A stretch of 64,000 nt of DNA from NCBI GenBank assembly GCA_963705705.1, contig CAVPKK010000004.1, positions 24,112 through 88,111 on the forward strand, given 5' to 3'. The notes under the pieces were generated by a model. It was not told the origin of the DNA. It did no database searches and worked only from the letters and a program-made list of their open reading frames with translations. A program made the translations under genes and the position numbers. How positions within the stretch are numbered: the stretch's first letter is position 1; each line of letters opens with the position of its first letter. Positions 33,964 through 34,950 of this stretch are shown here, piece by piece. Source of the DNA: an uncultured bacterium (GTDB taxonomy: Bacteria; Babelota; Babeliae; Babelales; JABCYS01).

Positions 33964-34950
33964 ATGACAGTACTCAACGTACAAAACCTCATCAAATCAT
34001 TTACCATCGGGCTTTGGCCATTCAAAAAGCCGGAGACGTATACCGCAGTAAATGATATTTCCTTTCAGATACAGAAAAGTGAAATTCTTGGCTTTCTTGG
34101 ACCAAACGGCGCAGGCAAGACAACTACAATTCAGATGCTTCTTGGCACCATGACACCAACAAGCGGATCAATTACCTATTTCGGCCAAGATTTTGCCACC
34201 AATCGTATCGCCGCGCTCAAGCGCATTGGATATGCCAGTGGCTATGACCGATTTCCTGCCCGTTTAACGGTAACAGAAAACTTAGATACCGTTGGCCGGA
34301 TTTATGGCCTTGAACAGCCGCATCGCTCGCAACAGATAGAAAAACTTCTGAAGGTTTTTGGCATTTGGGAGTTGCGTGATCGGCCAACCGGCGGTCTTTC
34401 GGCGGGGCAAACAACACGCGTAATGCTGGTAAAAGCATTTATGGCAGATCCAGAAATTGTATTACTTGATGAGCCGACCGCCTCATTGGATCCGGATGTT
34501 GCCCATGAAGTTCGGCAATTTATTTTGGCACAACGCAATGAGCATGGCACTTCGATATTGGTTACTTCTCACAATATGGACGAGGTAACTGAATTATGCG
34601 ATCGCGTTCTCGTGCTTAAGAAAGGCACCATTATTGCGGATGATACGCCTGAAGTGTTAGCGCAATCAACATCGAAAGTGCGCGTTCATCTGACGATTGC
34701 ACATGATATTGAAACAGTAATCAAATATCTTGATACGGAAAAACTCGACCGCCGCGCTCATCCTGAGTTAATCGAAGGATCAGATCGCGCGAAACCAAAC
34801 CATCTCACCATTGAATTAGATGAGCATGCCATTGCGCAATTTCTGGCTGATTTGGCCAAACAAGGGATTATCTACTCACATATTTCCATCGATAAGCCAA
34901 CACTCGAAGACTATTTCTTAAGCGTCGCTAAGCAAAAAGGAAATTCATGA
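33964..34950 (+). CDS. ABC transporter ATP-binding protein (ABC-2 type) carrying an in-frame repeat insertion
   Basis: 328 aa. GPNGAGKTTT, LSAGQTTRVMLV, VLLDEPTASLD, TSHNMDEV. The C-terminal accessory domain contains the repeat-encoded peptide RRAHPELIEGSDRAK. Confidence 0.9.
   Translation: MTVLNVQNLIKSFTIGLWPFKKPETYTAVNDISFQIQKSEILGFLGPNGAGKTTTIQMLLGTMTPTSGSITYFGQDFATNRIAALKRIGYASGYDRFPARLTVTENLDTVGRIYGLEQPHRSQQIEKLLKVFGIWELRDRPTGGLSAGQTTRVMLVKAFMADPEIVLLDEPTASLDPDVAHEVRQFILAQRNEHGTSILVTSHNMDEVTELCDRVLVLKKGTIIADDTPEVLAQSTSKVRVHLTIAHDIETVIKYLDTEKLDRRAHPELIEGSDRAKPNHLTIELDEHAIAQFLADLAKQGIIYSHISIDKPTLEDYFLSVAKQKGNS
34753..34791. repeat. dispersed palindromic repeat, approx 37-39-bp class, inside a CDS
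   Basis: CGCGCTCATCCTGAGTTAATCGAAGGATCAGATCGCGCG. Nearly identical to the intergenic copy at 33091..33127. Confidence 0.75.

What the first reader, a model, noticed from the sequence alone, without database searches (positions are those of the whole stretch)
34753..34791. Palindromic repeat inserted in-frame inside an ABC transporter ATPase gene
A 39-nt copy is nearly identical to the intergenic copy 1.6 kb upstream (33091-33127). It lies within the C-terminal accessory domain of the 328-aa ABC ATPase and is read through as RRAHPELIEGSDRAK, with no frame disruption (39 nt = 13 codons). In-frame insertion of palindromic elements into protein genes is the hallmark of Rickettsia palindromic elements. 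A comparable behaviour in an unrelated repeat family would be notable.
Basis: partly seen in the sequence, partly recalled or inferred. Interest (0 to 1): 0.55.

Follow-up and report, generated by a model that had tools for sequence, protein, structure and literature searches.

The report
Palindromic repeat inserted inside transporter gene
A 39-base copy of a small hairpin-forming repeat sits in frame inside an intact ABC-transporter ATPase gene of a Babeliales bacterium and adds a floppy surface loop; this is a known behaviour of bacterial palindromic repeats, but the repeat belongs to a very widespread family that I could not find described.

Summary
Window 34753-34791 is a 39-nt copy of a palindromic repeat. 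It shares a 30-nt exact core with the intergenic copy at 33090-33128, and at least three more intergenic loci in the window carry the repeat. It is read in frame as RAHPELIEGSDRA (residues 264-276) of a 328-aa ABC-2/ABCA-type ATPase.

None of 119 Babeliales orthologues has this segment, so it is a lineage-specific insertion. It is not a clean 13-codon indel: the net gain is 11 codons, at the turn of a beta-hairpin in the C-terminal R-domain. It is the only internal low-confidence stretch of the AlphaFold model. The rest of the protein is as conserved as in its orthologues.

Two other orthologues carry independent in-frame insertions of the same repeat kind. One is a 29-aa inverted dimer at the same turn. 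The other is a clean 12-codon insert in an N-terminal hairpin.

The repeat is a local variant of a cross-phylum hairpin family, CCGCTC-stem-TGAGCYTGTCGAA-stem, whose stem covaries. This family also sits in frame inside PheT, TsaD, malate synthase and pirin in other bacteria.

In-frame REP and MITE insertions are already documented in many species. The finding is therefore a new member of a known kind. The family itself appears to be uncatalogued.

The parts
34753..34791 (+). Genic copy of the palindromic repeat, 39 nt. It forms codons 264-276 (RAHPELIEGSDRA) of the ATPase. The inner stem ATCCT/AGGAT is intact. The outer stem is weakened by an extra TC in the right arm.
   Evidence: insert absent from 119 orthologues; pLDDT below 50 for residues 265-276
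33964..34950 (+). Host gene: a 328-aa ABC-2/ABCA-type ATPase (nucleotide-binding domain plus C-terminal R-domain). Its stop overlaps the start of the permease gene.
   Evidence: Pfam ABC_tran and DrrA1-3_C. Closest solved structures are 4yer, NosF and ABCA4 NBD+R-domain. All 90 invariant columns of the orthologue alignment are kept. R-domain identity to the consensus is 72.6% against a median of 75.3%.
34947..35741 (+). Cognate ABC-2 permease gene, translationally coupled to the ATPase gene
33090..33128 (+). Nearest intergenic copy (TCGCGCT...AGCGCGA). It lies between the stop of the paralogous ATPase gene (33055) and the start of its permease gene (33148). It is the copy most similar to the genic one.
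   Evidence: family D6; DNA hairpin -9.5 kcal/mol, z -3.0
5918..5955 (-). Intergenic copy between the tdk-like and radA-like genes. Its stem has TC/GA where the genic copy has CC/GG, a compensatory change.
57613..57650 (-). Intergenic copy with a TTTA loop, in a 950-nt divergent intergenic region
13176..13345 (+). Intergenic compound cluster of several whole and partial units
3440..3800 (.). Convergent intergenic region holding degenerate units of the general (CTTG/CCTG-loop) type

Best explanation
A roughly 37-nt REP-like palindromic element was copied into the ATPase gene after this lineage split from its nearest sampled relatives, which are 76% identical in protein. The element consists of a GCGCTC head, a covarying stem, the core TGAG-N4-TCGAA, and the complementary arm.

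It landed in the tight turn of the beta2-beta3 hairpin of the C-terminal R-domain, an ACT-like beta-alpha-beta-beta-alpha-beta fold. It survived for three reasons. The final length is a multiple of three. The reading frame used is one of the two stop-free frames of this variant. The encoded hydrophilic peptide can loop out at the surface. The protein otherwise remains under normal constraint, so the insert is best read as a tolerated passenger and not as a functional module.

Shown: the insertion is lineage-specific. It sits at a surface hairpin turn. The gene is intact. The same kind of insertion has recurred independently in this protein family and in unrelated proteins of other phyla. The stem of the element covaries.

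Inferred: the way it moves. By analogy with REP/REPIN elements, I propose copying as a single-stranded DNA hairpin by a trans-acting enzyme that recognises the conserved head and core. Also inferred: the extra TC in the right arm is a frame-restoring change, because 37 nt would shift the frame and 39 nt does not.
For: - Orthologue alignment. 119 of 119 Babeliales orthologues lack the segment. Most are 312 aa and read KL-xYTA-QxNHLTIELDEH.
- Structure. In the AlphaFold model of the window protein (mean pLDDT 85.7) the only internal segment below 50 is residues 265-276. In the model of orthologue P0003 this site is a strand-turn-strand, 262-266 and 269-274, with pLDDT around 90.
- Gene integrity. 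All 90 invariant columns of the orthologue alignment, which include the Walker A stretch, are retained. R-domain conservation outside the insert ranks 31st of 117 from the bottom.
- Independent insertions in the same protein family. P0033/L001 carries an 87-nt inverted dimer at the same turn, and its nearest relatives lack it. P0020/L121 carries a clean 36-nt insert, ALILSLSKDKSA, in the N-terminal hairpin and in another reading frame.
- The repeat is mostly intergenic. The other loci in the window that carry it are all intergenic.
- Cross-phylum family with a covarying stem. 93.2% of cells pair against 71.8% in shuffles. The covariation score is 0.521 against 0.146, reached by 0 of 500 shuffles, and all slid controls are far lower.
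- The motif sits in frame inside Pfam-spanned domains of PheT, TsaD, malate synthase G and pirin in other bacteria.
- The outer stem of the genic copy is degraded (z -0.85), unlike two of the three intergenic copies (z -3.0 and -2.2; the third is also -0.86).
Against: - No relative closer than 76% identity is available. The empty site, the exact boundaries and any target-site duplication therefore cannot be seen. The event is not a clean indel: 6 nt of host sequence are missing or overwritten.
- No transposase or RAYT gene was found, and no gene family is enriched near the units.
- Only 64 kb of this genome was examined.
- No expression or proteomic data exist, so translation of the insert is assumed from the intact frame.
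- Stem covariation can also arise from palindrome-templated repair without any selection for a hairpin.
Confidence: 0.8

Rival explanations
1. The genic copy did not arrive by transposition. It arose by local templated copying from the intergenic copy 1.66 kb upstream, through gene conversion, a template switch during replication, or repair.
For: Among the window copies, the genic copy and the nearest upstream copy are the most similar pair: 30-nt exact core, same TTAA loop and same CC/GG stem. The other copies have TC/GA stems or a TTTA loop. The two also share the 8-mer GAAAAACT 7 nt upstream of the element (family D6). Both lie in tandem paralogous ABC operons in the same orientation.
Against: GAAAAACTC in the gene encodes E-K-L, and K/Q-L is conserved in orthologues, so the shared 8-mer may be host sequence matching by chance. 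The same element kind has entered two other orthologues and unrelated genes elsewhere, so a general insertion process exists. With only four or five copies there is no statistical power.
Confidence: 0.15
2. The insert has been co-opted. One option is that the 13-residue loop modulates the R-domain. Another is that the hairpin acts in the mRNA, for example by pausing translation, stabilising the message or directing processing ahead of the coupled permease gene.
For: REPs are known to act as RNA elements (Di Nocera 2013). The inner stem and the conserved core of the genic copy are intact. The same hairpin turn was hit twice in this protein family.
Against: The outer stem is degraded in the genic copy. 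The insert occurs in 1 of 120 orthologues, and the second hit at this turn is a different subtype and a dimer, which fits a permissive site better than a selected function. The loop has low predicted order.
Confidence: 0.07
3. The segment is ancestral coding sequence, and the intergenic copies derive from the gene or resemble it by chance.
For: None beyond the sequence identity itself.
Against: It is absent from all 119 orthologues. The repeat occurs at other unlinked loci in the window and, in related form, in at least eight phyla. Chance expectation is 0.00.
Confidence: 0.01
4. It is an assembly artefact of the metagenome-assembled genome: a repeat-induced chimera or collapse placed the repeat inside the gene.
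For: The protein is a singleton in the 15-billion-protein collection, seen on one contig of 160,667 nt. Repeats do attract misassemblies.
Against: The junctions keep the reading frame. The flanking residues align with orthologues on both sides of the insert. The copy differs from every other copy in the window by the TC insertion. Two analogous in-frame insertions occur in independent assemblies.
Confidence: 0.03

Closest known systems
Intragenic REPs of the GTAG and CGTC superfamilies (Di Nocera, De Gregorio and Rocco 2013, BMC Genomics 14:522, PMC3733652)
   Same: Both are short (20-40 nt) palindromic repeats, mostly intergenic and often found as inverted dimers. Both have a conserved head next to a stem of about 8 positions that starts with A-T and T-A, and a 4-5 nt loop. 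Single units add about 8-13 residues and dimers 20-30 residues, in frame, to known proteins including tRNA synthetases. CGTC REPs are also cross-phylum and lack a dedicated transposase.
   Different: The head here is GCTC (CCGCTC or GCGCTC), not GTAG or CGTC. The stem contains an invariant TGAG/CGAA segment that I read as U-A, tandem G.A/A.G and G-C. The encoded peptides (HPELVEG, ILSLSKD, SFDKLRMS, LRQAQDER) are absent from that paper's list of intragenic REPs. No Dependentiae were in that survey.
Rickettsia palindromic elements (RPE; Ogata et al. 2000 and 2002, as cited in PMC10969869)
   Same: Both are palindromic repeats found in frame inside unrelated housekeeping genes, at positions compatible with the protein fold. 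Both hosts are obligate intracellular bacteria.
   Different: RPE-1-type elements are about 100-150 bp, and RPE-4 and RPE-6 are CGTC REPs. There is no sequence or peptide similarity to the element here. In this window only 1 of about 6 loci is genic, whereas the review reports that a large share of RPE copies lie inside genes.
REPIN/RAYT systems (Bertels and Rainey 2011, PMC3116915)
   Same: The inverted doublets of hairpin units separated by a short spacer resemble REPINs. Examples are L001 1745-1806 and many Dehalococcoidia loci.
   Different: REPIN families are described in that literature as lineage-specific and vertically inherited alongside a single RAYT (abstracts listed). Here identical 25-mers occur across phyla, and no RAYT association was found or could be tested.
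Rfam RF02901 AaHKsRNA41 (Aggregatibacter sRNA 41)
   Same: Its consensus contains an inverted pair of the same core, GCUGAgCUUGcCGAAGCAU ... AUGgUUCGgCAAGcUCAgC. It gives sub-threshold hits exactly on unit doublets.
   Different: The best score is 52 bits against a gathering score of 97. There is no hit in the window at gathering threshold. The Rfam family is one sRNA locus, not a description of the repeat family.
Bacterial MITEs that create in-frame fusions (ERIC, BOX, Coxiella QMITE1/2, Anabaena MITEs; PMC10969869, PMC5896051)
   Same: Both are non-autonomous repeats that occasionally extend or interrupt ORFs in frame.
   Different: MITEs are 100-400 bp with terminal inverted repeats and target-site duplications. 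The element here is 37-39 nt with no visible duplication.

Membership tests
Rickettsia palindromic elements (RPE) | Sequence or peptide similarity to an RPE family consensus (for example CGTC-1/RPE-6 peptides VIPAKAGI and SFPRKRES, or CGTC-4/RPE-4 peptides VIPWLDHGI and DTVVKPRYD) | tested here: not met
   The element encodes RAHPELIEGS, ALILSLSKD, SFDKLRMS or LRQAQDER. None of these strings is in the RPE/REP peptide table of PMC3733652, whereas IPAKAG and PAFAG are.
Rickettsia palindromic elements (RPE) | In-frame insertion in functional genes at structurally permissive positions | tested here: met
Rickettsia palindromic elements (RPE) | Length about 100-150 bp (RPE-1 type) and occurrence in Rickettsia | tested here: not met
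   The element is 37-39 nt and the host is a Babeliales bacterium.
REP (repetitive extragenic palindromes, GTAG/CGTC superfamilies) | A 20-40 nt imperfect palindrome present in many copies, mostly intergenic | tested here: met
   Hairpins of 37-39 nt. About 6 loci in 64 kb, 5 of them intergenic.
REP (repetitive extragenic palindromes, GTAG/CGTC superfamilies) | An unpaired GTAG or CGTC tetranucleotide at one end | tested here: not met
   The conserved head is (C)CGCTC or GCGCTC (alignment A3). In the Babeliales variant it pairs with AGCGC.
REP (repetitive extragenic palindromes, GTAG/CGTC superfamilies) | Stem maintained by compensatory changes | tested here: met
   GC 47 / CG 39; CG 74 / GC 19; UA 56 / GC 17 / CG 13. 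0 of 500 shuffles reach the observed score. Within the window, CC/GG is replaced by TC/GA.
REP (repetitive extragenic palindromes, GTAG/CGTC superfamilies) | Frequent inverted dimers (REPIN-like) | tested here: met
   L001 dimer; doublets in Dehalococcoidia and alphaproteobacterial loci
REP (repetitive extragenic palindromes, GTAG/CGTC superfamilies) | Association with a RAYT (IS200-like Y1 transposase) flanked by the repeats | tested here: inconclusive
   No gene family other than common housekeeping ones recurs within about 4 kb of units in 117 loci. No profile search for Y1 transposases was run, and only 64 kb of the host genome is available.
MITE | Terminal inverted repeats plus a target-site duplication, 100-400 bp, related to an IS | tested here: not met
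   The element is 37-39 nt. No direct repeat flanks any of the four window copies or the clean L121 insert.
Rfam RF02901 (AaHKsRNA41) | Score at or above the curated gathering threshold (97 bits) | tested here: not met
   0 hits in the window at gathering threshold. The best related locus scores 52.3 bits.

The most novel reading that the evidence does not exclude
The Babeliales element may be one branch of an uncatalogued third 'tagged REP' superfamily. Its form is head CCGCTC, a 3-4 bp covarying stem, the invariant core TGAGCYTGTCGAA (which I read as U-A, tandem G.A/A.G, G-C and a pentaloop), and the complementary arm.

This family is spread with near-identical sequence across many phyla and classes: Chloroflexota, Acidobacteriota, Alpha-, Beta- and Gammaproteobacteria, Elusimicrobia, Nitrospira, Binatia, Thermodesulfobacteriota, Wallbacteria and Dependentiae. 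It also occurs on megaplasmids and on viral contigs. It repeatedly inserts in frame into housekeeping proteins.

Such conservation would imply recognition by a shared, still unidentified trans-acting enzyme or host factor. It would also explain the very common peptide strings (HPELVEG, SLSKDE, FDKLRMS, LRQAQDER) that litter predicted proteomes.
Probability: 0.4. Interest if true: 0.6.

Novelty: new member of a known kind. Interest (0 to 1): 0.4.

Why it matters
For this gene the effect is probably neutral: a floppy loop is added to a regulatory domain.

The case is still useful in four ways:
- It documents REP-like elements and in-frame repeat insertion in Dependentiae. The genome papers I could search do not mention palindromic repeats for this phylum.
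- It shows that the same beta-hairpin turn of one protein family was hit twice independently. This marks a natural permissive site in ABC-2/ABCA R-domains.
- It connects the insert to a hairpin family conserved almost base for base across many phyla. The mobilising or binding factor of this family is unknown.
- It is a practical warning for annotation. These units generate spurious ORFs and short, unexpected insertions in real proteins.

Tried and rejected
- Rfam at gathering threshold on the whole window gave no hit. Permissive Rfam searches on related loci gave only sub-threshold RF02901.
- Literature searches by DNA core, by encoded peptide and by 'palindromic' plus Dependentiae found nothing specific.
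- The exact window protein could not be found by contig look-up.
- The metagenome scan for the Babeliales TTNA-loop variant returned one hit, from an unrelated high-GC organism. No larger in-clade census was therefore possible.
- Guilt-by-association clustering of ORFs near 125 units found only common families (SDR, ABC ATPase, luciferase-like, CoA-transferase, MFS, ADH, amidase) and no transposase.
- A megablast of the operon against plasmids gave no match.
- I considered a hammerhead-like motif (CUGA...GAA) and a tRNA T-loop resemblance. I rejected both on inspection, because the core lacks the required GA after N7 and does not have a 7-nt T-loop.
- I considered CGTC-REP membership and rejected it, because CGTC REPs are the VIPAKAGI/WIPAFAGMT-type repeats.

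Full report
OBSERVATION

The window sequence at 34753-34791 is CGCGCTCATCCTGAGTTAATCGAAGGATCAGATCGCGCG. The intergenic palindrome at 33090-33128 is TCGCGCTCATCCTGAGTTAATCGAAGGATCAAAGCGCGA. The two share an exact 30-mer.

A search with the 25-nt core and up to 3 mismatches finds four copies (5927-5951 minus, 33095-33119 plus, 34757-34781 plus, 57622-57646 minus), against 0.00 expected from shuffles. Looser patterns add a compound cluster at 13176-13345 and degenerate units at about 3450-3790.

The genic copy begins exactly at codon 264 of the ORF 33964..34950 and encodes RAHPELIEGSDRA without a stop. All the other loci are intergenic.

THE HOST GENE

The ORF is an ABC ATPase: Pfam ABC_tran, with a weak DrrA1-3_C match at the C-terminus. 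Its stop overlaps the start of an ABC-2 permease gene.

By sequence and by fold, the closest solved structures are TM_1403 (4yer), NosF with its R-domain, and the NBD+R-domain modules of ABCA4, ABCA7 and ABCA3. Source names of close homologues place the organism in Candidatus Babeliales (Dependentiae).

IS IT AN INSERTION?

I aligned the 120 best homologues, which are 68-76% identical to the window protein. Nearly all are 312 aa and read ...KL-xYTA-QxNHLTIELDEH. None of the 119 others has the RAHPELIEGSDRA segment.

A codon alignment with three orthologous loci shows 15 codons (GAC...GCG, 34747-34791) where orthologues have four. The net gain is therefore 11 codons, not 13.

The AlphaFold model of orthologue P0003 shows what these four residues are. 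Strand 262-266 (LAYAA) and strand 269-274 (NHLTIE) form a tight hairpin in a beta-alpha-beta-beta-alpha-beta R-domain, with pLDDT around 90.

The most economical reading is this. KLDRRA takes the place of the first strand, and its last two or three codons are supplied by the left arm of the element (CGC CGC GCT). The 11 residues HPELIEGSDRA then loop out at the hairpin turn.

In the model of the window protein (mean pLDDT 85.7) the only internal segment with pLDDT below 50 is 265-276, which is the insert.

The gene shows no sign of decay:
- All 90 invariant alignment columns are kept.
- Identity to the family consensus is 83.4% in the NBD, against a median of 86.4%.
- Identity in the R-domain outside the insert is 72.6%, against a median of 75.3%, ranking 31st of 117 from the bottom.

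INDEPENDENT INSERTIONS IN THE SAME PROTEIN FAMILY

P0033 (346 aa; locus L001) has 29 extra residues, TGTKTAHLEPVERCSASSFDKLRMSASCT, between PFTV and QPNQ. This is the same hairpin turn. Its DNA is an inverted pair of units, GCTCATCTTGAGCCTGTCGAAAGATGCAGC followed by GCTTCATCCTTCGACAAGCTCAGGATGAGC. The pair folds as a long hairpin (-22.7 kcal/mol, z -6.1). Orthologues that share its PFTV/PFSF-type strand (P0014, P0061) lack the insert.

P0020 (333 aa; locus L121) has a clean 12-codon insert, GCGCTCATCCTGAGTTTATCGAAGGATAAAAGCGCC. It is read in a different frame as ALILSLSKDKSA. It lies between WPFS and AKRTYTAV, in the turn of the N-terminal beta1-beta2 hairpin of the NBD.

So 3 of 120 orthologues carry separate in-frame insertions of this repeat kind, all at hairpin turns.

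ANATOMY OF THE ELEMENT

The Babeliales copies align as (C)GCGCTCATYC-TGAG-NNNN-TCGAA-GRAT-N(A/G)A-AGCGC(G). As single-stranded DNA they fold into an outer GCGCT/AGCGC stem, an internal loop and an inner ATCCT/AGGAT stem.

Copies differ by compensatory changes: CC...GG in two copies and TC...GA in two others.

The three intergenic copies span 37 nt from CGCGC to GCGCG. The genic copy has an extra TC in the right arm (39 nt) and a weakened outer stem (z -0.85, against -3.0 and -2.2 for two of the three intergenic copies; the third is -0.86). A 37-nt insert would shift the frame and 39 nt does not. I infer that this change was selected to restore the frame, but this cannot be shown without closer relatives.

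For the TTAA-loop variant, only two of the six reading frames are free of stops, as the sequence itself shows.

A MUCH WIDER FAMILY

I scanned one genome per GTDB species with GCTCATYCTGAGNNNNTCGAAGRAT. The hits were in Dehalococcoidia/SAR202, Acidobacteriota, Novosphingobium and other Sphingomonadales, Elusimicrobia, Nitrospira, Binatia, Thermodesulfobacteriota, Luteimonas, Wallbacteria and others. They include cultured isolates. The variable N4 is CTTG or CCTG in 106 of 125 units.

In the same loci, 124 further units with other stems occur, against about 7 expected by chance. Together they give the consensus CCGCTC-[4 nt]-TGAGCYTGTCGAA-[4 nt complementary].

On an ungapped alignment of 93 distinct units, the stem next to the invariant core pairs in 93.2% of cells, against 71.8% in shuffles. 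Double-sided changes are abundant (GC 47 / CG 39; CG 74 / GC 19; UA 56 / GC 17 / CG 13). The covariation score is 0.521 against 0.146, reached by 0 of 500 shuffles. All slid controls are far lower.

Within the core, T1-A13 and G4-C10 can pair and would flank G2.A12 and A3.G11. This is my structural reading and is untested.

The head GCTCA is also complementary to TGAGC of the core. That would allow an alternative small hairpin. I leave this unexplained.

The motif also occurs on 96 IMG/VR stretches. It is found on megaplasmids of Comamonas, Novosphingobium, Methylobacter, Rhizobium, Microvirga and Methylobacterium, always outside annotated genes.

Rfam has no family for it. The nearest is a sub-threshold match to RF02901, whose consensus contains an inverted pair of the core.

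IN-FRAME INSERTIONS ELSEWHERE

Among the cross-phylum loci, several units lie inside long ORFs. Pfam matches span the unit on both sides in:
- the PheT B5 domain (L027; 90 residues aligned to a 67-position profile);
- TsaD (L069; 337 residues aligned to 264 positions);
- pirin (Luteimonas cucumeris, L055).

In malate synthase G (L108) the unit lies between the TIM-barrel and C-terminal domain matches. A 2Fe-2S protein (L054) is a further, less clear candidate. The behaviour seen in the window is therefore a general property of this family.

COMPARISON WITH WHAT IS KNOWN

Di Nocera et al. 2013 (PMC3733652) classify short tagged REPs into GTAG and CGTC superfamilies across 8 phyla. They list intragenic in-frame units (8-9 residues for singles, 20-30 for dimers) in many known proteins. 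They show that Rickettsia RPE-4 and RPE-6 are CGTC REPs, and they note that CGTC REPs have no dedicated transposase.

The architecture here is similar: a head, an 8-position stem starting with A-T and T-A, a 5-nt loop, and inverted dimers. The head is different (GCTC). The characteristic peptides are absent from their table of intragenic REPs, whereas the CGTC peptides are present.

A 2024 review states that in-frame fusions by intragenic MITEs are not unusual. Coxiella QMITEs are another example.

The principal Dependentiae genome papers in the searchable library do not contain the word stem 'palindrom'.

I therefore file the finding as a new member of a known kind, namely intragenic REP-like insertion. 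It is not an RPE, a GTAG/CGTC REP, a MITE or an Rfam family, because the defining features of each were tested and not met.

MECHANISM

Shown:
- lineage-specific presence of the insert;
- its location at a surface hairpin turn;
- an intact host gene;
- recurrence of such insertions in this protein family and elsewhere;
- a covarying hairpin stem.

Inferred: mobility as a single-stranded hairpin recognised through the conserved head and core by a trans-acting enzyme, by analogy with REP/RAYT and IS200/IS605. Only insertions that keep the frame, avoid stops and fall in permissive loops would then be retained.

I found no transposase near the units. The way the element moves therefore remains the weakest step.

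A local templated copy from the neighbouring intergenic element is a live alternative for how this particular copy arrived. The two are the most similar pair, and they share an upstream 8-mer.

VERDICT

The insertion interpretation is supported, with corrections: the net gain is 11 residues, it is not a clean indel, and the behaviour is not unique to Rickettsia.

Interest is moderate (0.4). The event itself is ordinary for REP-like repeats. The more interesting lead is the apparently uncatalogued, cross-phylum hairpin family to which it belongs.

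Noticed in passing
window 3440-3800: A 400-nt convergent intergenic region (between an atpG-like ORF end and the murA-like gene at 3816..5129 on the minus strand) is packed with degenerate units of the same family. It also holds a G-rich palindrome, GGGGTCCCCAAACC...GGTGAGTTTGGGGT. There is no Rfam hit at gathering threshold.
   Followed up: partly
window 13176-13345: A compound cluster of three or four whole or partial units. The part folded (13176-13300) forms one long imperfect DNA hairpin (-23.3 kcal/mol, z -2.7). It lies upstream of the membrane-protein gene at 13403.
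   Followed up: partly
window 33076-33083 and 34738-34745: The genic copy and the nearest intergenic copy share the 8-mer GAAAAACT 7 nt upstream of the element. This could be chance, a target preference or a trace of templated copying.
   Followed up: partly
window 32300-35741: Two ABC-2 ATPase plus permease gene pairs lie in tandem. The first ATPase (251 aa) lacks the C-terminal R-domain that carries the insert in the second.
   Followed up: partly
window 14619-17414: Direct repeats of 299 nt (85% identical) and 110 nt (89% identical) spaced about 2.3 kb apart, probably paralogous genes.
   Followed up: no
window 30793-31881, 35792-36952, 36888-37946 (all minus strand): Three ORFs encode long, repetitive, charged proteins with hydrophobic N-termini. 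One has a J-domain-like motif (LALRVHPDKGG). They look like effector-type proteins of an intracellular bacterium.
   Followed up: no
cross-phylum loci L004-L120 (alignment A3): The conserved head GCTCA is the reverse complement of TGAGC in the invariant core. A small alternative hairpin, GCTCA-NNN-TGAGC, would therefore compete with the covarying stem. The purpose is unknown.
   Followed up: no
L007, L011, L020, L057 (one Acidobacteriota MAG); L058; L068 and L111; L005: Within single genomes, the unit is embedded in longer genome-specific repeats with near-identical flanks. This suggests the hairpin is a module of larger composite elements.
   Followed up: no
L071 4073-5423 (+): A Dehalococcoidia ORF carries WIPAFAGTT and RHSGYSRNPE, strings that resemble the peptides of CGTC-type REPs. 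If so, the two REP kinds coexist in one genome.
   Followed up: no
L069 6253-7536 (-): The TsaD gene of a Novosphingobium MAG carries a roughly 70-residue insert. It has four tandem half-units (LAQDER repeated, PAHPEPT on the other strand) next to a full unit, which suggests slippage within the element.
   Followed up: partly
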